DNA of 64,000 nucleotides from a virus (lineage: Duplodnaviria; Caudoviricetes): the IMG/VR virus record IMGVR_UViG_3300045243_000058, positions 1,153 through 65,152 of that record; one strand, 5' to 3'. The notes under the pieces were generated by a model. That model had not been told where the DNA came from. It did no database searches and saw nothing but the letters and a program-made list of their open reading frames with translations. Positions 3,745 to 44,907 of the stretch are shown in pieces. How positions within the stretch are numbered: the stretch's first letter is position 1; every line of letters begins with the position of its first letter. A program made the translations under genes and the position numbers.

Positions 3745-4044
3745 ACGGGGACGCGACGCGCGCCACGATCCAACCCTTGCAGCTACGACACGCGCCGGCC
3801 TTCTAAGGGCTCCCGCTTGGCCCCAGGTTGCCGCCCCGCTGTGGGTGATACTCTCGCACTGGCCCGGCAGGCGCGCTCCATGCCTCCAGGGGCGCAGATT
3901 GGGCCGAGGTGGGCTGCTGAGTGCTGCGGCCGGGGCGTACTCGCCGCCTGAGCCAGTGGAGCGCCACGGGCGGCCGTTTTCCGGTTCATCTCAGGCTCAG
4001 GTACAGGAGCAGGCCCAGAGCGACGAGGACCGCGCGCAGGCGTC

Positions 4045-33655: not shown

Positions 33656-34840
33656 ATGGCCTTGAGGCCCGTCGCTCCTCCGCCCTACGCCGCGCCGCCG
33701 CCGGTCGACCCGATGAACGCCGGGATGAACGCGCCGCCGCAGGGGCCGCCTCCGCCTCCCTATATGCCCGGGAGCGGCCAGCCCCCGTGGGCGCCGAACG
33801 TGAACGTCGCTCCGCCTCCTCCGCCGCCTTCCCCGGGCGGGGCAGCCCCCGACTACTCACAGCCGGGCGGTGAGGCACCGTTCGGCGGCACGCCGTACTG
33901 GTCGGGCGTGATGCGCAACTACATCGACATGATCACGAAGCCGCAGGCGACCCCGCGGCCCGCGCCGCTCGACAACTCCCAGATCGCCGCGTACATGCTC
34001 AACCCTGGGATGCGCGGCGAGCTGATGAACATGTACAACACGCCGTACCAGGCGGCCATCGCGCAGGCGCGCAGCCATGAGGAGATGATCGGCCACGGGC
34101 TCACCGGGGCCGCCCACATGCTCTCGGCCGCCGGCGAGTACGAGCAGCGCCAGCACGAGGACGCGCGCGAGACGGCGCAGCGAAACTACTCCTCGGCGAA
34201 GACGGCCGCGGAGTCCGGGGACGTCACGTTCGACTACAAGGCGGCGGGCGCGCCGGAACTCTATTCGGTCGCGCAACAGCGGGCCCAGATGTTCGGGACC
34301 ATCCACAACCCGGAGACCAAGCCGCAGGTCGAGGAGCGGAACCGGAAGGAGTGGTACGGGCGCCTCGACAAACTCCAGTCCCAGTTGAACGACATCCAAG
34401 CGGCGCGCGACAAGCTCCAGTCGAACCCGAACCTGGCGTTCCTCCTCGACCCCGAGAAGCGCAAGGGCAACGCGGGCTACGGGACGGCGAGCAACCTTGA
34501 GAAGTCGATCAACGACCGGAGCGCCCAGCTCGACCAGCAGGAAGCCGACATCCGTAAGGAGATGGACGCGCTCAGGACGATGTCTCCGGCGCTCGGCCCG
34601 CACGGCGAGCCGTCGACCTTCGAGCGGTACAACAAGATGTCGGGGCCGGAGCAGGAGCAATACGTTCAGAAGCGCGCGACCGTGATCCAGACGCTCAAGG
34701 CGCGCCCGCAGCGTCCCGGCCAGCCCTCCGACTACGAATTGTTCTCCAAGCTGTCGCCCGACCAGCAGGACGCCTTCGTCGAGCAGTTCGTGAAGGGACA
34801 GGAGGCGCGCCGGTCCTACGCCACGGCAGCGAGCCCCTGA
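33656..34840 (+). CDS. Putative ejection/internal virion protein
   Basis: Pro-rich N-terminus, then helical/coiled-coil; lies between the pilot and giant proteins. Confidence 0.65.
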   Translation: MALRPVAPPPYAAPPPVDPMNAGMNAPPQGPPPPPYMPGSGQPPWAPNVNVAPPPPPPSPGGAAPDYSQPGGEAPFGGTPYWSGVMRNYIDMITKPQATPRPAPLDNSQIAAYMLNPGMRGELMNMYNTPYQAAIAQARSHEEMIGHGLTGAAHMLSAAGEYEQRQHEDARETAQRNYSSAKTAAESGDVTFDYKAAGAPELYSVAQQRAQMFGTIHNPETKPQVEERNRKEWYGRLDKLQSQLNDIQAARDKLQSNPNLAFLLDPEKRKGNAGYGTASNLEKSINDRSAQLDQQEADIRKEMDALRTMSPALGPHGEPSTFERYNKMSGPEQEQYVQKRATVIQTLKARPQRPGQPSDYELFSKLSPDQQDAFVEQFVKGQEARRSYATAASP

Positions 34841-37800
34841 TGCCGCCGGAGGCGCCGAGCGCGTACGACGAGCTCCTCCGCCGGTACGGAATGGACCAGC
34901 CGTCGTCATCGGCGCCGTCCGCCGGGCCCGGCCCGGCCGATCACTCCTCCCTAGAAGCGCAGAACGGCCTGCCGCCCGGCCTCCTGGACGCAGTAGCGCA
35001 ACAGGAGTCCGGAGGGAACCCGAACGCCGTGTCGAAGGCCGGCGCTGTCGGCAAGTTCCAGTTCATGCCCGCCACAGCGCGCGCCTACGGGCTGCGGGTC
35101 GACGCCGGCGCCGACGAGCGCCGAGACCCCGTCAAGAGCGCCGCCGCTGCGGCCCTCCTCCTCGGTGACCTGCACCGTCGGTTCAGCGGGCGCACCGACC
35201 TCGCGCTCGCGGCCTACAACGCCGGGCCGGGCGCCGTGAAGGACGCCGGGAACGCCGTGCCCGACTTCCCCGAGACCCAGAACTACGTCCGGTCGATCAT
35301 GGGGAAGATGGGCGCGAGCGCGGCACCCGCCGACACCGGGGCGATGGACGAACTCATGCGCCGCTACGGTCTCTCCGGCGACCAGGATATGCCAGCGCCG
35401 GCGGCGCCCGACACGACTGGCGCTCCCGCGCCGCCTCCGAGCGCCGCGCCGGCCGCTCCGGCGCCGCAGATACCCGGCACCGGCGGCTACCAGTTCCCGG
35501 CCGCGGGCATGGTGGCGCAGGGGCCGGGCGGCGACATCGCCTTCCCGCCGTCCGCGCGCGCTCCGCAAGGCGAGGTCCAGGTGCCCCCGAAGTCGGCGAC
35601 CGACGCAGAGGAACGGCAGCGACAACTGGCCGACTGGTGGGAGGGCGGCGGTAAGGCCATGAGCCCGCAGCAGATCGCCGCGCTCGGCCCAGAGTACCAG
35701 GCGTTCTACGAGGAAACGACCGGGAAACGACCGACGATGGGCGCGCCGCCATCCGAGTTCCAGATGACCGGCGCGCAGCTTGCGCAGTCGACCGGAGAGC
35801 AGGCGTACGCCGGGTTCGCCGGCGCCGTGGCACCGTACGTCCCGAACATCCCCGGGGCCGACGTCGTGAAGTGGCAGCGCGAGGTCGGCGCGTCCGGGCC
35901 GATCGGGGTCGCCGCCGGCGCCGCGGGGGCCATCGCCGGGTACTCGACGCCGACTCCGCTCCCGGTTGCGGCGCGGACGGTCGGGAAACTCGCCTCCGAG
36001 ATGCTCATCGGCCGCGGCGCTATCGAGATGGCCGACAAGGCGAAGCAGGCGCTCTTCGAGGACTCCCTCGACGCGCTCCTCAACGGAGAGCACGGTCCGA
36101 AGGTGGTCCGTGCCGCGCAGGCGGCGCGCGCCGCAGCGATGGACGCCGGGGCCTCCGTGGAGGACGCGGCGACTGCCGGGACCAACGCCGCCCACGACTA
36201 CATCACCGCCAACGTCGCCCCCACGGCCCAGAGGTTCGCCGACGCGATGGGCGACCAGCTCCTCAAGGGGATGTCCGGAAGCGCCCGCGTGTGGGCGGCC
36301 CGCAATCTCCTCGACCCGGCCGCGGCCGGCCTGACCGCCGGAGGCATTGAGTCGGCGACCGGCCTCGCGACCGGAGAGGTGAAGCCGGAAGACCTCCCGG
36401 ACCACCTCGTCGGGACGTCGCTCGGGTTCCTCGTCGCGCACCTCGGATGGAAGGGCGTCAGCGCCGCCATGCGCAATCTCGGGCTCACAGAGGGTGACGT
36501 GATCTGGAAGGCGCGCAACGGCAAGGAGTTGAGCGACGACGAGAAGGACATGCTCAACCGCCTCGTCCAGCGGGTGCGCGCCGGAAGCCAAGGCCCGGGC
36601 CGGTCGGAGTACCCGCAGGCGGCCATCGCCGGCACGCCGCCGCAGGCGCCGGGCGGCCCGGTGGCGCCCGGCGAGGCGCTCGAGCGCAGCGGTCAGGCGC
36701 AGGCGCTCGCTGACATTCTCCAGCCGGCCCGGGACGCTCGCGCGGCCGAAGCGTCCGATGCCGCCGCGCGCGCGGCGCGCGCCGCCGACAAGCAGGCCCG
36801 GGAAGCCTCCGTCGCCGCGGCACGGGCGCAGGACGTCTCGGGCGCGATGGCCCCCCTCCAGGAGCGCGCGAAGTTCTACGTGGAACAGGGGTTGCTCTCT
36901 GCGGAGGAAGTGCAGAGCATGGGGTCTCCTGACGCCCTGTCGCGCCTCCTCGACGTAGCGCAGAACCGTCGGGCCGAGGAGGAGCAACGGAAGCTCGCCA
37001 CGTTGGCTCAGGGCGCGCGATTGTCCGGAACGGGACTCGTGACTCGCATCCCCGCCACGGAGCCGCAGGCCGCCCCCGTAGCGCCACAGCCGGAGCCGCC
37101 TCCGCCGGCGCCGGCGCCGCCGGAATCGGTCCCGGAGCGGTACATCCCCGGACAGCGGGATCGGTTCTGGGTGCAGAGCATCCTCGCGCGCGCGCCGAAC
37201 GTGAACGAGGCGGTCAAGATGGCGCAGGAGCGCATCGGTGCGCAGCCGGGGCTCGACGACTACGTCCGGGCGCGCTGGAACGACAAGTTCCAGGCCGGCC
37301 AGAAGGAGCAGGCGACTCGAGACCTGATTCGGCAGGCGAATCAGTCCGAGCAGGCGCGCCTCCAGCGCGGCGAGAACCGGGCGAAGGTCGCGCGCGACAT
37401 CGCCGACCGCCTGGCGAGCGACCAGAAGATCAAGGAGAAGCAGCAGTTGGCGAACGCGGGGCGTGAGGTCCCCACTGAGATCGGCCACGCGCAAGACGTG
37501 TCGGCCTTCCACGACCTCCTCGGCCCGGAGACACCACCTGCCGCCACACCGGCCCCTGCCCCGACGGAACCGACCGTCGCGGCACCTTCCCCCGCGGCGT
37601 CCACGGGGCAGGAGCCGGCGAACGCCGCGCCAGTCGCTCCATCGACTGGATCCATAAATGCGGGGAAAAAGTCCTTGACTCCGAAGCGCACGAAGGAGCA
37701 GCAGTCCTATGTCGACGCTCTCGGGGACGCCATCGGCCACTGGGGGAAGATGCTCATCGACCACGTCGGCGCGGTGCGCATCGACACCCAGAAGGCCATC

Positions 37801-40800
37801 GCGAAGACCGGCCCGCGCGACACCACGACGTTCGACCTGCACCCCGACACCATCAAGGTCCTGAACGACACGCGTCTCGGGATGGTCAAGGGCCTCATCG
37901 TGAACAGCGACGGCGTCCCGATCGACGAGGCGGCGGACGCGATGGCGCGCCTCGGGTTCGCCGGCGGCGACCGGGCACACGCGAAGAAGGAACTCCTCGG
38001 CCTGATCCAGAAGATCGCCGGAGACGCGAGCGCCGGTCGCTACAGCGACGTGAAGGACCGGATGAAGTGGGGCAAGGCGATGGAAGACGTCGGCGGGGCG
38101 ATGATCCAGCCGGTCGCCGGCGGAGACCTGAAAGTCGGCCAGGAGTTCACGACGCACGACGGCACCAACTGGACCGTCACGAGCACGAAGCCCGGGGCCA
38201 TCACCGTCGAGAGCACGACGGGCGGGAAGAAGGTCAAGGTCGACGAGTTCGACAAGATCCCGACCATCGGCGGGGTGAGCGGGCCGTCCTCGTTCGGTGA
38301 ACAGCGCGGCGCCTACGTCGCTGGCGGGAAGACGATTCAGGCGTTGCAGGCGCGCTCCTACCTCGTGCGCGAGCCGGCCGGCGCAGACTGGAAGACGGCG
38401 AGCGACAAGTTGAAGGGCGTGCTGATTCGCATCGGCGCGTACCACATGCGCCGCGGCGCCGTGGACCTCGCCGGTCTCGAGAAGGCGATGGTCGGGGAAC
38501 TCGGCCCGCGAGCGCAGGCTTTCGTCCCGGGCGTCTTTGGTGTACTGTCCAAGATGCCGGCCTTCGCAAAGCCGGCGGCGCAGGCGGCGGGTGCCCCGGC
38601 GGTCAGCGTGTCGTCTCCAGGCGGCGCGGGCTCAACGGTGGCGGCTCCCTCCCCACCGGCAGTCACCGGGGCACCCGCCGCGAAGCCAGGAGGCACCGAT
38701 GTCGGAACTCAGCCTGTACGACCTGTCGCAGGCGTCGGAAGACCCGGAGGAGCAGAAGCAGGGCAAGGTGTACATGCCCCCGGGCCCGGAGGACGAACGA
38801 GTCCTCGGGGAGATGTTGCGGCGCCTCCGGCCGAAACTCCTCCAGCGAAAGCGCCAAAGGCCGCCAAGCCCGAGGAAGTAGCACCGACCCGCACCCTCCG
38901 CCCCGGCGGCGTCGCGACCATCTCAAAGGAACTCCTGCCCCGACTCGAACCCGAGTGGAAGTCACTCTACGACCGTCTCGCCGCGCCCGAAGGGCTCGAC
39001 AAGATGGCGAAGATGTTCGGGATGCGCCCGCTCGAGCACCAGGTCGAGAACCTCGTGCGCATCCTCCGGTCGCTCAAGGCCGACCGCGCGCCCGTGCTCG
39101 CGGACGGGACGGGCACCGGGAAGACCCTCTCGGCCGTCATGGTCATCAACGAGCACCTGCTCGCCAACCCGCACAGCCGGCAACTCGTCGTCCTGCCGAA
39201 CGCGGAGATCAAGAGACAGTGGGAGAAGACGCTCAAGCGGGCCGGCATCAATTCGCACTACGTCGAGGAAGCCTTCTCGACGAAGCCGATGACGGTCAAC
39301 TTCATGACCTACCATCGCCTCGGGATCTGGGGACGCGAGAAGCGGATCGGTCTCATCGAGGGGTTCAACCCCGACCTCATCACCTTCGACGAGGCGCACC
39401 GGCTCCGGAACTTCTTCACGGGTGACACGGCCTGGGCACGCATCGGCGAGGAAATCTCCCGCGCGCCCTACTCGAAGAAGGCGCTCTTCCTATCCGCGAC
39501 GCCGTTCCAGTCCTTCCTGCACACCAAGTACCTGACGCGCACGCAACTCTGGGATCCGAAGCAGGCGTGGCCCGACTGGCTGTACCAGAACTTCGGCATC
39601 TACAAGGACAAGGACGGGTCGTGGAACGGCGCGTCGCCGAAGTCGCTGCGGAAGATTCACGAGTCGATGTACCGCTCCGGCGTGCTCCTGAAACACGAGG
39701 TCGACTTCAAGGGCCTCAAGAACTCGAAGGGCGAGACGATCACGTACGCCTCGGAGAACCGCATGGTCTCGGGGTCGCAGGAGCACGTCGCGCAGCAGGC
39801 GAAGTACACGAACCTGTTCCAGACGGTCATCGCGGGCCTGATGGAAGACCCTGCGAAGAACCGCCGGAACATCATGATCGTCAAGGGCGTCCAGCACCTC
39901 TTCAACCGATCGATGGACGAGATCGAGAAGGTGCGCGGCGTCATCGACACGGCGCGCGCCGACCTGGCCGCCGGCAAGAGCGTCATCTTCATGCTCCTGC
40001 GGAAGAACGAGACGTCCGCGGAACAGTGGTACGCCGACTGGGAGGCCGGGAAGCGCGAGTACAAGAAGGGCTCGTACATGCCGGACCTCCTGAAGGTCAT
40101 GCGCGACCACGAGGTTTCCGTGCCGAGCCCCATGGAGACGCTGCGGACGGCCTTCCCGCAGGCGACGTTCATCACGGGTGACCAACCGAGCGGTGGCGGC
40201 GCGCGCGCGTCGAGCATCGACGAGTTCCAGTCCGGGCGCGCAAAGGTCGCCGTCGTCACGATGGCCGCCGGCGCCGAGGGGCTCGACCTCCAGGACCGCA
40301 TCGGCGCGCACCCGCGGTCGATGTACGTCCTGAGCGTCCCGTACACGGCAGGGGAGACGGCGCAGGTCGCCGGGCGCCCGTTCCGCCTCGGGAGCGAGTC
40401 GAGCGCGAGCGTCACCTGGCTCTATACCGACTCGGCGCAGGACGTGAGACAGGCGAAGCTCGTCGCCAACCGCATCCGCGAGATGGGCGCGCTCATCAAG
40501 GGCGAGGTCGAGAGCCCGGGCGCGGACGAGATCGAAAAGTTCAACTTCCCCGAGCTCGACCAGCAGCGCATGAAGCAGGTCGACTCCACGGTCGGCCCGA
40601 ACCACGTCCCGGTCACGCTCGAGGACATGCAGTACCTCGACATGGAGCCGGACGGCGACTTCAACGTCGGCGAGAACCGGCAGCGGTACAAGACGACCGC
40701 GGGCGAGCAGGGCACTCTGTTTCAGACGCCGCAACAGGTCCGGTACGCGAGCGAGAGCGCCAAGCGCGCAGGCGCCATCCTGTCGCAGGACAGCGCCCTC

Positions 40801-43800
40801 TGGAACCGGCTCAAGGCGACGGGCGAGACGCTCCCGATCTACGGAGCGACGCTCGAAAGCCCGGCCGACGTCGCGAAGATGTTTCAGTTCCTCGAGGACC
40901 GCGGGCAGGAGAACGTCTACCTCCTGCTCACCAAGGGCGACACTCCCATTGGTGTCGTGCACCACGCCATCGGTGGCAAGAGCCACGCGACCGTCATCCC
41001 GCCGATCCTCTTGGCGCAGGTCAAGGCAAGCGGCGCCGACGGCCTGCACCTCGTCCACAATCACCCGAGCCAAGACCCGACCCTGAGCGACGACGACGTC
41101 AGGCTCGCGGAGAACTTGGCGGGCCTCCTTCGCGAAATCGGCGTGACCGTGCGGAGCGCCATAGCCACGGACATCGATCGCTTCGGGTACGTGAACACCG
41201 GGAACGGTGAGTTCCGCAAGCAGATACTCCACCGCGGAGAGATGGGCAGCCCCGTCGGGCAGGTCGCCATGATGGCGCTCCACACTGAGCGTGCGCGACC
41301 GGAGAAGGGCGACTACCTGAGCAACCCGCCGAAGGCCGTCATGGCGTGGCACGCCATCGTCACCGACCGCGCGTCACCGAAGACGGCGTTCCTCCTCCTC
41401 AACAAGGACCGGCGGGTCACCGGCCACGTCCTCGTTGCAGGCGATTTCAAGGAACTCATCGAGTCGCCAGACAACCGCGAGACCATCGCGGCTCTGAGCA
41501 ACTTTCTGGCGGCGGCGGCGCACAACGAGGTGGCCGTCGTCAGCAACTCCATCGCCGGCCGTCGCTGGAGCGCGGAAGAGGCGCGCGCGGGCGCATCCGA
41601 CACGCTGCGCGCCTACGGAGAACTGGCGCGGTCGTATCTCGGGAATCGCTCCGACATGCTCGACTTCATCCACGTCCTCAAGAACGAGGCGGGGGATGTC
41701 GCGGCGTTCTCCTACCGCGGCGACATGGCGGTCGAGAAGGCCAAGGCGAAGAAGTTCGAGGTCTCGGAGAACAAGCCCGGGCGCGGCCTCGGTGGCCTCC
41801 CGGCCCGCAGCGAAATCGTCAAGCAGGCGGAAGAGATCCTCGGGACGGCGATCCGGTACAAGCGCATGGGCAAGACGCCGAAGGCGGTGCGCGGGTTCTA
41901 CCAGCCGGTCGGCGGGAACATCAGGATTCGGCGCCCGCTCCAGATGGACACGATCTTCCACGAACTCGGGCACCGTCTCGACCACCTTGTCTTCGGCCAG
42001 CAGGGACCGAATCTCGGAAGCGTACAGGCGCTCCGCCGGTTCCGCGCCGAACTGCTCCCGCTTGCGACGATCCCGGGCCCGGGTCAGGACGCGCTCCCCG
42101 AGGCGTTCGCCGAGTTCATGAAGCACTACGTCATGGACCCCGCGAAGGCCGCGCGCGTCGCGCCGACGTTCTACCCGTACTTCGAGACCTTCATGCAGAG
42201 CGCCAAGGACACCAAGGTCCTGCACGAAGGCATCCTCGCGCTCCGGGACCTGATGGGCGAGTGGCGCACGGGCGACAAGTGGGACCGGATGGGAAGCAGC
42301 ATCGTGAGCGGCGAGATGCCGTTCCACCACTTCCAGCACGAGGCGACCTGGCGCCACCTCTACTCGTACACGTTCGACCAACTCCACTTCCTCCGGTGGG
42401 CGCAAGGGAAGATTGAGGCGCTCGCGGACGGCGCGCCGCTCCGCCCGGACCAGAACCTCAAGGTCCTCGCGACCACGATCACCGGCCGCATGGGGATCGC
42501 CGAGGTCATGGTCAACCACGGGATGACGACGTTCGGGAACCCGGAGCGCCGCGTCGGTCCCTCTCTGCGCGAGATCGCCGAGTCGGTCGGGAGCAAGTGG
42601 CCGAAGTACGAGTCGTACGTCAAGGCGCTCAGGACGCTCTACCTGATGAACCGCGACAAGATGGGCGCGAAGGAGTTCATCGGCGACTACGTCACCGACG
42701 ACGACGTGCGCGGCATCGTGCGGGACGGAAAGGCCGACTTCCTCCATACCTACGGTCTCCAGAAGCAGTACAGCACGGGGCTGCTGCGCTACTACTTCGG
42801 GGCGGGGATGCTCACCGAGAAGGGCATCGCGGACATTGAGGCGCACAACCTCGTCTACTCGCCGTTCCAGCGGCTCATGGACCCGGAGGAGTTGTCGCGC
42901 CCGGGCGGCGGCGCCGGCACGGGCGGCCGGATGGCGAGCCTGTACCGGGGGCTCTACAAGTTGACCGGGAGCCAGAGGGAGACGTTCCCGGCGCTCGAAT
43001 CGCTCCTTCGCATGACGCACACGATGGTCGACCGGGCGGAGAAGAACGCGGTCGTCGTCGCGCTTCTCGATCAGTCCAAGAACCTCAAGGACGCCGGCGT
43101 GCACCTCGCCGAGTGGGTCCCCGAGGAGAAGGTGCCTATCGAACTGCGCGTCGGGACGATCGCCTCGCGGCTCCGTCAGGAACTGGGCATCAAGATCCCC
43201 GGCCTGACCCAGGATCAGATGGACGAGTACCTGACCCTGTTCATGCCGTCGACGAGCTTGCCGAAGCCGCCCTACGTCTGGGCGTGGAAGAACGGGGTCC
43301 GCCGGTACGCCTGGATCAACCCGGACGTCTACGACGCCCTCATGAGCCTCGAGCGCGACCAGCTCCCATGGTTCCTGTCGTGGATGAAGGCCGGCCCGAC
43401 TCTCGTGCGTGGCGGTGCCGTCGTGCTCAACCCGGGGTTCTGGGGATGGAACGAGGCCCGCAAACTCGCGACGGTCATTGTGCAGAGCCACCAGCCGTGG
43501 AAGAACCTCATGTACGTCCCGACCTCGTTCATCGACGGGCTCCTGAAGACCGAGCGGTATCACAAGTACATGGTGACCGGGGCGGCCTACGCGACATTCG
43601 TGCGCCAGACCCAGGACGGGGTCGCCGAGGCCGTGCGCCGGATGGTGGCCGCGCGCGCTCACCCGGTCGCCTTCTACTCGAATCCGGTGAACGCCATCCG
43701 TGGCATCTACTCGCTCGCCGGTCGCGTGCTCGCCGCGTCGGACATGGCGCCGCGCATCGCAGAGGCGCGCGTCCTCGGCCTCGACCAGGCGCAGGGGCGC

Positions 43801-44907
43801 GCCGATCTTCTGCCGATCGGCGCCGCCGCGGCGGACGTGACGCTCGATTACCGGCGGGTCGGGTCGAAGCTGAAGACGCTCTCCGGGGTGACCGCCTTCC
43901 TGACCGCGCACATGCAGGCCATCGACCGGCCGGTGCGCTTCGCGAAGGACCATCCGGCGCGCGCCGCTGGCGTCGCCGTCGCCGCGTTCCTCCTCGGGAT
44001 CACGTACTACATGATGAACCGGGAGAAGAAGCAGTACCAGGACGAGGCGCAGGAGAACAAGGATCTCTACTGGTATTTCTATCCCAGCGACGAGGCGGAC
44101 GACGCCGGCTTCCGGCTCCCGAAGCCCTACGCTTACGGCTGGTTCGCGACCGCGGCGGAGCGGACGATGGAGTCGATGGAGAAGCACCAGCCGGAGATGT
44201 TCCGCCAGTTCGCCGAGGACTTCGGGCGCGGCATGACACCCAACTTCGTGCCGACGATGCTCCAGCCACCCCTCGAAGTCCTGATGAACCGGAGCCTGAA
44301 CACCGGCCGGAAGGTGCAACCCGACACGGGGCTTCCGCAGGAGCGCCGCTGGCCGTGGACGACAGAGAGCGCGGTCGACATCGCCCGCGCGATATCGAGC
44401 GAGGGCGCCGGCGTCAGCGGCCCGGTCATCGAACACCTCGCCGGCGGCCTGACCGGCGGCCTCGGGATGGACGCGCTCCGACTGTCCGACAAGTACATCC
44501 TCGGGGTCCAACCGAAGCGTCCGTCGTACCTGGCGGACGAGCCGGTCATCGGGCGCTTCTTCTCGCGGCAGCCGAACTTCTCGACGGACGCGGTACGCCG
44601 GTTCTACGAGGCGTGGGGGCCCGCGTCCGACGCCTACGCGAGCCAGTCCCAGGCGCGCGCCGAAGGGACGCAGGCGGTCATGGACTTCGAGAAGGCGTAC
44701 GGGCACACCGGCGGCCATCTGCTACAGCGGTACTTCGAGATGCAGGGAGCGCACGCGGCGCTCGCGGCGGCGTGGAAGGAACTCGACCACCTCGACCAGG
44801 AGAACCTGAGCGACGAACAAAGGAAGGATCGGGAAGCGGCGATTGCCCGTAGAATTACGTGGGCAGCGAACATGGGTCTCGCGGCGATACGAAAGGCGCC
44901 GCAGTAG
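34840..44907 (+). CDS. Giant polyvalent ejection protein: SLT + SF2 helicase + JAB/RadC + zincin + LPD38-like
   Basis: SLT: QESGG..AVSKAGAVGKFQFMP, AAYNAG, ETQNYV. Helicase: ADGTGTGKT, FDEAH, LSATP, AGAEGLDL, QVAGR. JAB: HNHPSQDPTLSDDD. Zincin: FHELGH...EAFAEF. C-terminal RLPKPY...PLEVLMN. Confidence 0.9.
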   Translation: MPPEAPSAYDELLRRYGMDQPSSSAPSAGPGPADHSSLEAQNGLPPGLLDAVAQQESGGNPNAVSKAGAVGKFQFMPATARAYGLRVDAGADERRDPVKSAAAAALLLGDLHRRFSGRTDLALAAYNAGPGAVKDAGNAVPDFPETQNYVRSIMGKMGASAAPADTGAMDELMRRYGLSGDQDMPAPAAPDTTGAPAPPPSAAPAAPAPQIPGTGGYQFPAAGMVAQGPGGDIAFPPSARAPQGEVQVPPKSATDAEERQRQLADWWEGGGKAMSPQQIAALGPEYQAFYEETTGKRPTMGAPPSEFQMTGAQLAQSTGEQAYAGFAGAVAPYVPNIPGADVVKWQREVGASGPIGVAAGAAGAIAGYSTPTPLPVAARTVGKLASEMLIGRGAIEMADKAKQALFEDSLDALLNGEHGPKVVRAAQAARAAAMDAGASVEDAATAGTNAAHDYITANVAPTAQRFADAMGDQLLKGMSGSARVWAARNLLDPAAAGLTAGGIESATGLATGEVKPEDLPDHLVGTSLGFLVAHLGWKGVSAAMRNLGLTEGDVIWKARNGKELSDDEKDMLNRLVQRVRAGSQGPGRSEYPQAAIAGTPPQAPGGPVAPGEALERSGQAQALADILQPARDARAAEASDAAARAARAADKQAREASVAAARAQDVSGAMAPLQERAKFYVEQGLLSAEEVQSMGSPDALSRLLDVAQNRRAEEEQRKLATLAQGARLSGTGLVTRIPATEPQAAPVAPQPEPPPPAPAPPESVPERYIPGQRDRFWVQSILARAPNVNEAVKMAQERIGAQPGLDDYVRARWNDKFQAGQKEQATRDLIRQANQSEQARLQRGENRAKVARDIADRLASDQKIKEKQQLANAGREVPTEIGHAQDVSAFHDLLGPETPPAATPAPAPTEPTVAAPSPAASTGQEPANAAPVAPSTGSINAGKKSLTPKRTKEQQSYVDALGDAIGHWGKMLIDHVGAVRIDTQKAIAKTGPRDTTTFDLHPDTIKVLNDTRLGMVKGLIVNSDGVPIDEAADAMARLGFAGGDRAHAKKELLGLIQKIAGDASAGRYSDVKDRMKWGKAMEDVGGAMIQPVAGGDLKVGQEFTTHDGTNWTVTSTKPGAITVESTTGGKKVKVDEFDKIPTIGGVSGPSSFGEQRGAYVAGGKTIQALQARSYLVREPAGADWKTASDKLKGVLIRIGAYHMRRGAVDLAGLEKAMVGELGPRAQAFVPGVFGVLSKMPAFAKPAAQAAGAPAVSVSSPGGAGSTVAAPSPPAVTGAPAAKPGGTDVGTQPVRPVAGVGRPGGAEAGQGVHAPGPGGRTSPRGDVAAPPAETPPAKAPKAAKPEEVAPTRTLRPGGVATISKELLPRLEPEWKSLYDRLAAPEGLDKMAKMFGMRPLEHQVENLVRILRSLKADRAPVLADGTGTGKTLSAVMVINEHLLANPHSRQLVVLPNAEIKRQWEKTLKRAGINSHYVEEAFSTKPMTVNFMTYHRLGIWGREKRIGLIEGFNPDLITFDEAHRLRNFFTGDTAWARIGEEISRAPYSKKALFLSATPFQSFLHTKYLTRTQLWDPKQAWPDWLYQNFGIYKDKDGSWNGASPKSLRKIHESMYRSGVLLKHEVDFKGLKNSKGETITYASENRMVSGSQEHVAQQAKYTNLFQTVIAGLMEDPAKNRRNIMIVKGVQHLFNRSMDEIEKVRGVIDTARADLAAGKSVIFMLLRKNETSAEQWYADWEAGKREYKKGSYMPDLLKVMRDHEVSVPSPMETLRTAFPQATFITGDQPSGGGARASSIDEFQSGRAKVAVVTMAAGAEGLDLQDRIGAHPRSMYVLSVPYTAGETAQVAGRPFRLGSESSASVTWLYTDSAQDVRQAKLVANRIREMGALIKGEVESPGADEIEKFNFPELDQQRMKQVDSTVGPNHVPVTLEDMQYLDMEPDGDFNVGENRQRYKTTAGEQGTLFQTPQQVRYASESAKRAGAILSQDSALWNRLKATGETLPIYGATLESPADVAKMFQFLEDRGQENVYLLLTKGDTPIGVVHHAIGGKSHATVIPPILLAQVKASGADGLHLVHNHPSQDPTLSDDDVRLAENLAGLLREIGVTVRSAIATDIDRFGYVNTGNGEFRKQILHRGEMGSPVGQVAMMALHTERARPEKGDYLSNPPKAVMAWHAIVTDRASPKTAFLLLNKDRRVTGHVLVAGDFKELIESPDNRETIAALSNFLAAAAHNEVAVVSNSIAGRRWSAEEARAGASDTLRAYGELARSYLGNRSDMLDFIHVLKNEAGDVAAFSYRGDMAVEKAKAKKFEVSENKPGRGLGGLPARSEIVKQAEEILGTAIRYKRMGKTPKAVRGFYQPVGGNIRIRRPLQMDTIFHELGHRLDHLVFGQQGPNLGSVQALRRFRAELLPLATIPGPGQDALPEAFAEFMKHYVMDPAKAARVAPTFYPYFETFMQSAKDTKVLHEGILALRDLMGEWRTGDKWDRMGSSIVSGEMPFHHFQHEATWRHLYSYTFDQLHFLRWAQGKIEALADGAPLRPDQNLKVLATTITGRMGIAEVMVNHGMTTFGNPERRVGPSLREIAESVGSKWPKYESYVKALRTLYLMNRDKMGAKEFIGDYVTDDDVRGIVRDGKADFLHTYGLQKQYSTGLLRYYFGAGMLTEKGIADIEAHNLVYSPFQRLMDPEELSRPGGGAGTGGRMASLYRGLYKLTGSQRETFPALESLLRMTHTMVDRAEKNAVVVALLDQSKNLKDAGVHLAEWVPEEKVPIELRVGTIASRLRQELGIKIPGLTQDQMDEYLTLFMPSTSLPKPPYVWAWKNGVRRYAWINPDVYDALMSLERDQLPWFLSWMKAGPTLVRGGAVVLNPGFWGWNEARKLATVIVQSHQPWKNLMYVPTSFIDGLLKTERYHKYMVTGAAYATFVRQTQDGVAEAVRRMVAARAHPVAFYSNPVNAIRGIYSLAGRVLAASDMAPRIAEARVLGLDQAQGRADLLPIGAAAADVTLDYRRVGSKLKTLSGVTAFLTAHMQAIDRPVRFAKDHPARAAGVAVAAFLLGITYYMMNREKKQYQDEAQENKDLYWYFYPSDEADDAGFRLPKPYAYGWFATAAERTMESMEKHQPEMFRQFAEDFGRGMTPNFVPTMLQPPLEVLMNRSLNTGRKVQPDTGLPQERRWPWTTESAVDIARAISSEGAGVSGPVIEHLAGGLTGGLGMDALRLSDKYILGVQPKRPSYLADEPVIGRFFSRQPNFSTDAVRRFYEAWGPASDAYASQSQARAEGTQAVMDFEKAYGHTGGHLLQRYFEMQGAHAALAAAWKELDHLDQENLSDEQRKDREAAIARRITWAANMGLAAIRKAPQ
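38699..38881 (+). CDS. Nested, overprinted 60-aa ORF (+1 frame) inside the giant gene
   Basis: AGGAGG-5nt-ATG; GC3 bias switches into this frame. Confidence 0.6.
   Translation: MSELSLYDLSQASEDPEEQKQGKVYMPPGPEDERVLGEMLRRLRPKLLQRKRQRPPSPRK

What the first reader, a model, noticed from the sequence alone, without database searches (positions are those of the whole stretch)
38688..38881. Overprinted gene hidden in the linker of the giant ejection protein, just before the helicase
Seen: perfect AGGAGG (38688-93), 5 nt, then ATG (38699) opens a +1-frame 60-aa ORF, MSELSLYDLSQASEDPEEQKQGKVYMPPGPEDERVLGEMLRRLRPKLLQRKRQRPPSPRK. By hand count, 44 of its first 49 codons end in G/C, while about two-thirds of host-frame codons over the same stretch end in A/T, the reverse of the rest of the 10-kb gene. 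The host frame here is a low-complexity G/P/A linker, so selection appears to act on the nested frame. A possible internal -10 (TACTGT, 38543) lies upstream. Inference: a separately translated small protein, perhaps an inhibitor or chaperone that keeps the adjacent helicase/JAB domains quiet during late expression. This would be a built-in effector-antidote arrangement that standard gene callers would miss.
Basis: partly seen in the sequence, partly recalled or inferred. Interest (0 to 1): 0.72.

Follow-up and report, generated by a model that had tools for sequence, protein, structure and literature searches.

The report
Small gene nested in giant phage gene
A 60-codon gene with its own ribosome-binding site appears to sit, in a different reading frame, inside the flexible linker of a 3355-residue phage virion protein gene, and it is the nested frame that natural selection seems to be preserving there.

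Summary
In it, 44 of the first 49 nested codons end in G/C, while 32 of 49 host codons end in A/T. For the whole gene the A/T figure is 345 of 3355.

This inversion is the only one in 1241 windows across 35 gene-like ORFs. Codon usage marks the +1 frame as the coding frame from the ATG to about codon 49.

The only distant relative (57% identical host protein) keeps AGGAGG, the 5-nt spacer, the ATG, an ungapped ORF (34/60 identical) and the same inversion. A near relative (one metagenome contig) has 4 changes in the 183-nt ORF. Three are synonymous in the nested frame and all four are non-synonymous in the host frame. Directly downstream, 7 of 9 changes fall on host third positions.

Best reading (about 0.75): a real, separately initiated small protein with an acidic disordered N-terminus and a basic amphipathic helix. 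It has no homologues, and its gene is overprinted with the linker of a polyvalent virion protein.

The proposed internal promoter is unsupported, and the inhibitor/antidote role is untested. Support rests on three sequences and no expression data. This is a new variant of the known embedded-gene (Rz1-in-Rz) architecture.

The parts
34840..44907 (+). Host gene: 3355-aa polyvalent virion (probably ejected) protein. Domains: SLT transglycosylase (aa 39-142), ResIII/SNF2/Sno-type helicase (aa 1396-1903), RadC-like JAB (aa 2006-2104), LPD38 (aa 3064-3218).
   Evidence: ORF, translation, Pfam. It lies downstream of genes matching tail and internal-virion-protein PHROGs. The reading frame stays continuous across the linker in the window, in L001 (3387-aa protein P0003) and in the near relative (indels net +3).
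38569..38687 (+). Upstream part of the inter-domain linker (Ala/Pro/Gly/Ser-rich), coding in the host frame only. It is fast-evolving and rich in indels.
   Evidence: The near relative shows 9 substitutions and 4 small indels in 38606-38665. There are gaps against L001. The +1-frame log-odds profile is flat or falling here.
38688..38693 (+). Shine-Dalgarno sequence AGGAGG of the nested gene, 5 nt before the ATG.
   Evidence: The same hexamer and the same 5-nt spacing are present in L001 (3876-3881, ATG at 3887). It is unchanged in the near relative. Other genes in the window also have AGGAGG 4-10 nt before their starts.
38699..38881 (+). Nested +1-frame gene: 60 codons plus TAG. The product is 7.1 kDa with pI 9.6.
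   Evidence: The orthologue in L001 (3887-4102, 71 codons) is 34/60 identical and 45/60 similar with no gaps. The near relative has 4 changes in 183 nt: 3 synonymous here and 1 L>I.
38699..38845 (+). Core of the nested gene (codons 1-49), where the +1 frame carries the coding signature and the host frame looks non-coding.
   Evidence: The maximum-scoring +1-coding segment scores 56.0 nats (window) and 54.3 nats (L001), against at most 6.2 in 3 other 2-kb blocks. The cumulative rise begins at the SD/ATG and ends near codon 49-53 in both genomes.
38846..38881 (+). Tail of the nested gene (RKRQRPPSPRK plus stop), where the host frame (…AKAPKAAKPEE…) resumes its normal coding signature. Both frames are conserved here, but the stop position is not.
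   Evidence: One search shows the log-odds falling. In one search, for codons 46-60, pNN is .107 against pSN .364 and pNS .328. In L001 the ORF runs 11 codons further (71 aa against 60).
38786..38854 (+). Segment encoding the predicted basic amphipathic helix (residues 30-52) of the nested protein.
   Evidence: AlphaFold2 model: helix 30-52, with block pLDDT 92 for residues 31-50. The hydrophobic positions L36, L40, L/V43 and L47 are conserved. The C-terminal half carries net charge +7 in both orthologues.
38663..38965 (-). Antisense 'shadow' ORF (100 aa, Leu/Arg-rich) in the codon-complement frame of the nested gene. Judged not to be a gene.
   Evidence: In L001 it is only 53 aa with different ends and an internal stop. 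Its GC by codon position (.88/.38/.74) fits the genome pattern less well than that of the sense +1 frame (.74/.38/.88).

Best explanation
38699-38881 is a real protein-coding gene embedded in the +1 frame of the linker between an uncharacterised domain and the helicase of a 3355-aa polyvalent virion protein gene.

Ribosomes most likely start independently at ATG 38699, using the AGGAGG 5 nt upstream, on the same late mRNA that encodes the giant protein. No separate promoter is needed. The product is a 60-aa protein. Its first ~29 residues are acidic, proline-rich and probably disordered. Residues 30-52 form a strongly basic amphipathic helix with a conserved Leu stripe.

Across codons 1-49 the nested frame is the constrained frame. 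The host frame there only has to stay open and supply a flexible Gly/Pro/Ala/Arg tether.

What is shown: the ORF, the SD and ATG and their conservation, the frame-specific composition and codon usage, and the substitution pattern.

What is inferred: translation itself and initiation at the ATG.

More weakly inferred: the helix docks on a macromolecular partner. My guesses are the giant protein or virion assembly (about 35%), nucleic acid (about 25%), and a host target (about 25%).
For: (1) Composition. Host-frame GC3 falls from a mean of .90 to .36-.40 only here. This is the minimum of 330 windows in the gene and accounts for the only 5 flagged windows of 1241 in 35 ORFs. In a genome whose unconstrained sites drift to G/C, A/T-rich host third positions behave like second codon positions of another frame.

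(2) Codon usage. The nested frame scores +.483 (window) and +.472 (L001), above all 1067 +1-frame control windows (maximum -.222) and at the 11th-12th percentile of true in-frame windows. The host frame over the same stretch scores -.661 and -.563, below every in-frame window (minimum -.492).

(3) Boundaries. The +1 signal (56.0 and 54.3 nats, against at most 6.2 elsewhere) starts at the SD/ATG in both genomes.

(4) Distant relative L001. Its host protein is 57% identical (413/719). AGGAGG, the 5-nt spacer and the ATG are conserved, and the ORF is ungapped. The nested peptide is 34/60 identical, against about 27/60 (my hand count from the alignment) for the host frame over the same stretch. 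The N-terminal -4/-5 and C-terminal +7/+7 charge split is also conserved.

(5) Near relative (run X2, record 7). It has 4 differences in the 183-nt ORF against 19 in 276 nt of inner flanks (Fisher p=.028). Three of the 4 are synonymous in the nested frame, the fourth is L>I, and all 4 are non-synonymous in the host frame. None of the 4 falls on a host third position, against 7 of 9 just downstream (p=.021). The SD, ATG and TAG are unchanged.

(6) Site-class counts, window against L001: pNN .257, pNS .444, pSN .360. This gives a nested-frame ratio of about .58 and a host-frame ratio of about .71. For codons 2-45 the ratios are .65 and .875.

(7) Three independent assemblies share the same frame layout, so a sequencing error is excluded.
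Against: - Only three sequences exist, and no other relative was found in any collection.
- In the distant pair, differences spread almost evenly over nested codon positions (15/15/19 in the first 45 codons), and the dN/dS-like ratio of .58 is weak at this level of saturation. Low host-pos3 divergence (.29-.33) also occurs in a few other stretches of the gene.
- The near relative is one contig at depth 3.76 with only 4 informative changes. 12 of its 35 differences were not listed. I infer they lie near its ends, where other contigs overlap, but I did not see them.
- The stop codon is not conserved (60 against 71 codons).
- ORF length and the AGGAGG motif are unremarkable on their own.
- The start region is not unusually unstructured: MFE -13.6 against a mean of -15.7 in the window, and -19.4 against -16.4 in L001.
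- No homologue, family or fold match exists.
- There are no RNA, ribosome or peptide data.
Confidence: 0.75

Rival explanations
1. Frameshift product. A fraction of ribosomes translating the giant gene slip into the +1 frame just upstream of 38699. They make a truncated ~1290-aa N-terminal protein that ends with the nested peptide and stops before the helicase. The ATG is then just a methionine and AGGAGG a stimulator or a coincidence.
For: The +1 frame is open upstream of the ATG in both genomes (from 38426 in the window and 3647 in L001). Runs such as GGG-G and CCC-G followed by rarer codons lie within about 30 nt upstream in both genomes. Purifying selection on the +1 frame would fit this reading equally well.
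Against: The +1 coding signal starts at the SD/ATG, and the profile is flat or falling upstream. The upstream +1 peptide is not conserved between the window and L001. In the near relative the upstream +1 frame takes 6 non-synonymous changes among the 9 substitutions at 38606-38660, plus frame-breaking indels at 38648-38665. I saw no canonical slippery motif with a correctly placed stimulator; in the classic prfB case, recalled and not tested here, the SD lies upstream of the slip site, whereas here it lies downstream of the candidate runs. The exact AGGAGG-5 nt-ATG geometry is conserved.
Confidence: 0.08
2. No second product. The A/T-ending host codons are a selected rare-codon cluster that slows translation at a domain boundary. 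Alternatively they are a fading relic of an old out-of-frame remodelling of the linker. In either case the open +1 frame, SD and ATG are coincidences.
For: The stretch lies at a domain boundary in a low-complexity linker. A 60-codon open +1 frame has P of about .28 and AGGAGG is common. Out-of-frame remodelling of genes is described in the literature (PMC8788219; I saw only the search listing and the start of the abstract).
Against: A rare-codon cluster does not predict genome-typical codon usage in the +1 frame. Nor does it predict a signal that begins exactly at a conserved SD-ATG in two genomes, or changes that are 3 of 4 synonymous in the +1 frame with none at host third positions. A relic should have decayed between genomes whose host proteins are only 57% identical and whose third positions differ at 43% of sites, yet L001 shows the same inversion (.94/.76/.40).
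Confidence: 0.1
3. The constrained frame is on the opposite strand. The antisense ORF 38663-38965 (100 aa) would be the real nested gene, and the sense +1 ORF its codon-complement shadow.
For: Its second codon positions also coincide with the A/T-rich host third positions, and it is open for 100 codons in the window.
Against: In L001 it is cut to 53 aa, with different start and stop positions and an internal stop. Its GC by codon position (.88/.38/.74) fits the genome's .68/.48/.90 less well than the sense frame does (.74/.38/.88). Its Leu/Arg-rich product resembles the long antisense shadow ORFs opposite the rest of the giant gene (1164 and 1114 aa). I examined no SD or conserved start for it.
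Confidence: 0.03

Closest known systems
Lambda Rz/Rz1 'embedded' two-component spanin genes
   Same: A small phage gene lies wholly inside a larger gene of the same strand in the +1 frame, has its own start, and is usually missed by gene callers. Source: PMC6139136, passages read. That survey counted 182 embedded systems and noted that o-spanin genes were often not annotated. The paper also sketches a stop-loss route to embedding, like the one proposed here.
   Different: Rz1 is an outer-membrane lipoprotein with a lipoylation signal. The nested protein here has no Cys, no signal sequence and no hydrophobic segment. The host gene is a 3355-aa virion polyvalent protein, not an i-spanin, and the overlap sits in an inter-domain linker. 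No sequence similarity was found in PHROGs.
   Same: Two proteins are read from one DNA stretch in different frames. [quoted passage not shown]
   Different: Here the embedded small ORF has the genome-like codon usage and the large host gene has the deviant usage. Under that rule the small gene would be the older frame and the linker the overprint, the reverse of the usual picture. With no relatives that carry separate genes, this could not be tested.
Phage-type polyvalent proteins (Iyer et al. 2017) and DarB-like injected anti-restriction proteins
   Same: The host gene is a very large multi-domain protein in a virion module, combining SLT, an SNF2/Sno-type helicase, a RadC JAB domain and LPD38. 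A tblastn hit falls on a gene annotated 'DarB-like antirestriction' in Pseudomonas phage Skulduggery: 32% identity over 18% of the query.
   Different: A word search of that paper for 'overlapping', 'frameshift' and 'linker' returned 0 occurrences each, so no embedded gene is described there. The paper lists RadC only in conjugative-element proteins and LPD38 only in phage-type ones, but this protein has both.

Membership tests
Same-strand embedded (+1 frame) overlapping gene of a phage | ORF lies wholly inside a longer ORF of the same strand, in another frame | tested here: met
   38699-38881 lies inside 34840-44907, and (38699-34840) mod 3 = 1. The same layout holds in L001.
Same-strand embedded (+1 frame) overlapping gene of a phage | Own ribosome-binding site and start codon, conserved in relatives | tested here: met
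   AGGAGG, a 5-nt spacer and ATG are present in the window and in L001 and unchanged in the near relative. That is 3 of 3 sequences.
Same-strand embedded (+1 frame) overlapping gene of a phage | Coding signature (codon-position composition and codon usage) in the embedded frame | tested here: met
   The signal is unique in the 64-kb window and is present in both genomes.
Same-strand embedded (+1 frame) overlapping gene of a phage | Purifying selection on the embedded frame | tested here: met
   Met, but on small numbers. In the near relative 3 of 4 changes are synonymous in the nested frame and 0 of 4 in the host frame (p about .02-.04). In the distant pair pNN/pNS is about .58, which is weak.
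Same-strand embedded (+1 frame) overlapping gene of a phage | The product is actually made (footprints, peptide, phenotype) | not testable with these tools
   No RNA holder was listed for this stretch. The phage is known only from metagenome assemblies.
o-spanin (Rz1-like) | N-terminal lipoprotein signal with a lipobox Cys | tested here: not met
   The peptide has no Cys and no hydrophobic N-terminus. There is no PHROG match.
Programmed ribosomal frameshift product | Conserved slippery site with a correctly placed stimulator, and conservation of the shifted frame from that site onward | tested here: inconclusive
   I saw no canonical motif. GGG-G and CCC-G runs exist upstream in both genomes but at different distances from the SD. 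The +1 signal begins only at the SD/ATG.
Polyvalent protein (host gene) | Several unrelated effector or enzymatic domains in one polypeptide of a phage or conjugative element | tested here: met
   SLT, ResIII/SNF2/Helicase_C_4, RadC and LPD38 all score above the Pfam cut-offs. The gene sits in a virion module.
Toxin-antitoxin / effector-antidote pair | The small protein binds and neutralises the neighbouring activity | not testable with these tools
   No family match for the small protein. No usable result on binding.

The most novel reading that the evidence does not exclude
The linker, not the small gene, is the overprint. On this reading the giant polyvalent gene was built by stop-loss fusion of two virion or anti-defence genes straight across a still-functional small gene that once lay between them. 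The small gene survives embedded in the new linker. Its product, made in cis from the same mRNA, acts on the giant protein as an assembly or packaging chaperone, or as a brake on the helicase/JAB half until ejection. That would be a new way for polyvalent proteins to grow, and a built-in partner that no annotation shows.
Probability: 0.2. Interest if true: 0.75.

Novelty: new variant of a known kind. Interest (0 to 1): 0.58.

Why it matters
Giant polyvalent proteins are thought to be injected with phage DNA to disarm host defences. How they are folded, packaged and kept inactive is largely unknown.

A conserved orphan gene hidden inside the linker of one such protein would be co-expressed with it and is invisible to gene callers. 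If it is real, it is a candidate partner or regulator, and it shows that low-complexity linkers in giant phage genes can hide coding capacity.

It is also a clean example of using codon-position composition in a high-GC genome to find overlapping genes. If the small gene is the older frame, it would additionally document gene fusion by read-through across an intervening gene.

The limits are that only three sequences exist, the host is unknown, and nothing is known about function.

Tried and rejected
More relatives. Five scans of viral contigs, two of genome contigs and one of metagenome contigs returned only one related contig, recorded as L001=L002=L003=L004=L006. One remote 28% helicase hit (L005) also came back. 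blastn against cultured phages found nothing. tblastn found 4 records with only remote helicase similarity. The 5.8-billion-protein search found only the window's protein and P0003, whose sampled segments match the L001-contig (L004) translation exactly. I did not run the 'shorter' or 'longer' length options, so split or fused forms of the giant gene and of the peptide were not searched for.

Homologues of the nested peptide. All searches were empty: word-indexed profile search at 33-125 aa, full hmmsearch of 1.84 billion representatives, tblastn against phages, Pfam, PHROGs, ESM Atlas, Foldseek against the PDB, and a paralogue search within the window.

Complex prediction. The nested peptide was folded together with the upstream domain (aa 1001-1250) and the helicase (aa 1345-1960). 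The verdict was 'no answer', with run scores of .53.00 and .00. I do not use this for or against binding.

Expression. No RNA holder was listed for this stretch.

Promoter.

mRNA accessibility at the start is unremarkable and counts as neutral.

Rejected readings:
- Sequencing or assembly frameshift: three assemblies agree.
- Double frameshift back into the host frame: the +1 stop codons lie at different places.
- Termination-reinitiation to make a separate helicase protein: reading, I saw no ATG, GTG or TTG in the host frame until about 120 nt after the nested stop.

I did not open supplementary files of any paper; the tables of the spanin survey (PMC6139136) might bear on how common embedded genes are.

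'Not in print' rests only.
Full report
**What is there**

The window is a 66% G+C virus record (one search states it is a virus record). A 10,068-nt ORF at 34840-44907 encodes a 3355-aa protein. Its Pfam domains are an N-terminal SLT lytic transglycosylase (aa 39-142), a ResIII/SNF2/Strawberry-notch-type helicase (aa 1396-1903), a RadC-like JAB domain (aa 2006-2104) and LPD38 (aa 3064-3218). It follows genes that match tail-protein and internal-virion-protein PHROGs. This fits the 'polyvalent protein' class of Iyer et al. 2017 (PMC5512222; passages read). 'Giant ejection protein' is a reasonable label but remains inferred.

Between an uncharacterised domain ending near aa 1245 and the helicase lies a low-complexity Ala/Pro/Gly linker.

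**Is it more than chance?**

The ORF and the motif alone are not. The +1 frame of this gene has .021 stops per codon, so a 60-codon open run has P of about .28. AGGAGG occurs 39 times on the + strand, and 17 of those are followed by a start codon within 3-12 nt.

The composition is exceptional.
- In 150-nt windows, host GC3 has mean .899 and sd .084 over 330 windows, with its minimum of .36 at 38701.
- Over 35 gene-like ORFs of the window (1241 windows), only five windows were flagged (host GC3 below .6 and another codon position above .8), all at 38620-38740.
- I trained a codon-usage log-odds score on the window's + strand genes with this locus masked. The nested frame scores +.483. That is above all 1067 +1-frame control windows (maximum -.222) and at the 12th percentile of genuine in-frame windows. 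The host frame over the same stretch scores -.661, below every in-frame window (minimum -.492).
- The maximum-scoring '+1 is coding' segment reaches 56.0 nats, against at most 6.2 in three other 2-kb blocks of the gene.
- The cumulative profile is flat or falling upstream. It begins to rise at the SD/ATG, stops rising near codon 49, and then falls where the host frame (…AKAPKAAKPEE…) regains its normal signature.

**Relatives**

Five viral-contig scans, two genome-contig scans and one metagenome scan returned a single related contig, L001, which also came back as L002-L004 and L006. The 5.8-billion-protein collection holds only the window's protein and a 3387-aa protein (P0003) whose sampled segments are identical to the translation of L004, the same contig as L001. 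The family is therefore very small.

L001's host protein is 57% identical (413/719). Third codon positions differ at 43% of 2649 aligned codons. Despite this divergence, L001 has:
- AGGAGG at 3876-81, a 5-nt spacer and ATG at 3887;
- an ungapped +1 ORF whose product is 34/60 identical and 45/60 similar to the window's, against about 27/60 for the host frame over the same columns (my count from the alignment);
- the same inversion.94/.76/.40;
- a nested-frame codon score of +.472 against -.563 for the host frame;
- a 54.3-nat segment starting at its SD/ATG.

The stop is not conserved: L001's ORF runs to 71 codons.

Pairwise substitution statistics are only weakly informative at this distance.
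- Differences fall 15/15/19 on nested codon positions 1/2/3 in the first 45 codons.
- Site-class counts give pNN .257, pNS .444 and pSN .360. The nested-frame ratio is about .58 and the host-frame ratio about .71. For codons 2-45 the ratios are .65 and .875.
- Host third-position divergence of .29-.33 here is low for such a poorly conserved stretch, but it is not unique in the gene.

**A near relative**

Eleven public runs hold at least part of the stretch, and I laid four of them. One 591-nt contig of run X2 (record 7, 38441-39028, 35 differences, 5 gaps, depth 3.76) spans the locus. A 151-nt contig of run X5 is identical over 38720-38866.

Within the 183-nt ORF, record 7 shows 4 listed differences:
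- 38708 C>A: nested L4I, host T>N.
- 38740 A>G: nested-synonymous, host R>G.
- 38746 G>C: nested-synonymous, host G>R.
- 38836 A>G: nested-synonymous, host T>A.

The inner flanks show at least 10 substitutions in 38506-38698, plus four small indels at 38648-38665 that net to +3. They show 9 substitutions in 38882-38964, of which 7 are at host third positions and 8 are host-synonymous. The rate contrast (4/183 against 19/276) gives Fisher p=.028. The share of changes at host third positions (0/4 against 7/9) gives p=.021. The SD, ATG and TAG carry no listed difference.

Two caveats apply. The table omitted 45 places, 12 of them belonging to this contig. I infer these lie towards its ends, where other contigs overlap and lower their share, because the contig is the only cover over most of the ORF (bins 38702-38809 and 38864-38971 in table 2); a little other cover lies in 38810-38863. 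I did not see them. Also, a single contig at depth under 5 can carry errors.

**Interpretation**

In a genome where unconstrained sites are about 90% G/C, host third positions held at about 40% G/C in two lineages with saturated synonymous sites must be constrained. They behave as second codon positions of the +1 frame. The onset of the signal at a conserved SD-ATG, the nested-synonymous changes in the near relative, and the drop in substitution rate inside what should be the fastest-evolving part of the protein all point to a translated, selected +1-frame product. All three sequences also keep the host frame continuous despite several linker indels, so the giant protein is read through as one polypeptide. 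The stretch is therefore dual-coding, with the linker as the weakly constrained partner over codons 1-49.

**Rivals**

(a) A +1 frameshift giving a truncated N-terminal protein with this tail. This cannot be excluded from sequence alone. But the signal starts at the ATG, the upstream +1 peptide is neither conserved nor spared by indels, and the SD-spacer-ATG geometry is preserved. I give it about .08.

(b) A rare-codon pause site or a remodelling relic with no second product. This fails to explain the genome-typical codon usage in the +1 frame, the conserved start, and the persistence of the inversion across divergent genomes. I give it about .10.

(c) The antisense codon-complement ORF (38663-38965). 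In L001 it is truncated with different ends. Its GC pattern is less typical and its product is Leu/Arg-rich, like the 1164-aa and 1114-aa shadow ORFs opposite the rest of the gene. I give it about .03.

**The protein**

- It is 7.1 kDa with pI 9.6. Residues 1-29 have net charge -4 (-5 in L001) and are proline-rich. The C-terminal half has net charge +7 in both orthologues.
- AlphaFold2 on the two-sequence alignment gives mean pLDDT 78, with a confident helix at residues 30-52 (block pLDDT 92) and a low-confidence N-terminus.
- Conserved residues include G22, V24, Y25, P27-P28, the run P30-E-D-E-R34, and the hydrophobic stripe L36, L40, L/V43, L47.
- No Pfam, PHROG, sequence, language-model or fold relative was found.

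Function is therefore inferred from anatomy alone: a small partner-binding helix with an acidic tail, produced from the same late mRNA as the giant protein. The internal -10 is unsupported and unnecessary.

**Comparison with known systems**

The architecture is that of lambda Rz1 within Rz: fully embedded, +1 frame, own start, and usually missed by gene callers (PMC6139136; passages read). However, the product is not a lipoprotein and the host gene is unrelated, so this is not a spanin.

By the rule of Pavesi et al. (PMC3744397; abstract read), the frame with genome-like codon usage tends to be the ancestral one. Here that is the small ORF. This suggests that the linker overprinted a pre-existing small gene when two genes fused by read-through, a route also sketched for embedded spanins. 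It is a hypothesis only. Current selection alone could produce the same codon pattern, and no relative with separate genes was found.

Full-text searches for 'polyvalent protein' with 'overlapping gene', and for 'internal virion protein' with 'embedded gene' and 'phage', found nothing relevant. The words 'overlapping', 'frameshift' and 'linker' do not occur in Iyer et al..

**Verdict**

- Observation: confirmed.
- The promoter: not supported.
- The functional story: untested.
- Novelty: a new variant of a known kind, namely an orphan embedded gene in the linker of a polyvalent virion protein.
- Interest: .58. The case is well supported for a computational finding and opens a concrete experiment. 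It rests on three sequences, an unknown host and no functional clue.

Noticed in passing
window 40855-41151 and 44029-44493: The giant protein carries both a RadC-like JAB domain and LPD38. Iyer et al. [quoted passage not shown] This phage protein combines the two.
   Followed up: partly
window 34838-34842: The upstream gene (33656-34840, 394 aa, no PHROG match) ends on the same base at which the giant gene starts. This 1-nt stop/start overlap suggests translational coupling.
   Followed up: no
window 34951-38445 (-) and 41374-44718 (-): Very long antisense ORFs (1164 and 1114 aa) lie opposite the giant gene in the codon-complement frame. These are the usual shadow ORFs of a high-GC gene, not genes, and they served as the yardstick for the antisense rival.
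   Followed up: partly
window 37500-37660: The second-lowest GC3 dip of the giant gene (.66-.78) lies in another Ala/Pro-rich linker. There, third positions differ from L001 at .80-.87 of aligned codons. This is probably a misaligned or non-homologous low-complexity stretch, and no alternative-frame signal was flagged.
   Followed up: no
window 38720-38866 (run X5, record 26) and 38441-39028 (run X2, record 7): An identical 147-nt stretch and a roughly 94% identical 591-nt contig occur in soil-metagenome runs of studies other than the likely source. This phage lineage therefore recurs in soil samples. The many 35-45-nt pieces from the other runs look like chance matches in G+C-rich DNA.
   Followed up: partly
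L005 1767-2075: A 9.6-kb viral contig encodes a 28% identical match to the helicase N-lobe only. Among cultured phages, the nearest hits are SNF2 helicases of two Lysinibacillus phages and a 'DarB-like antirestriction' gene of Pseudomonas phage Skulduggery. The giant gene family is otherwise nearly unique in the collections searched.
   Followed up: no
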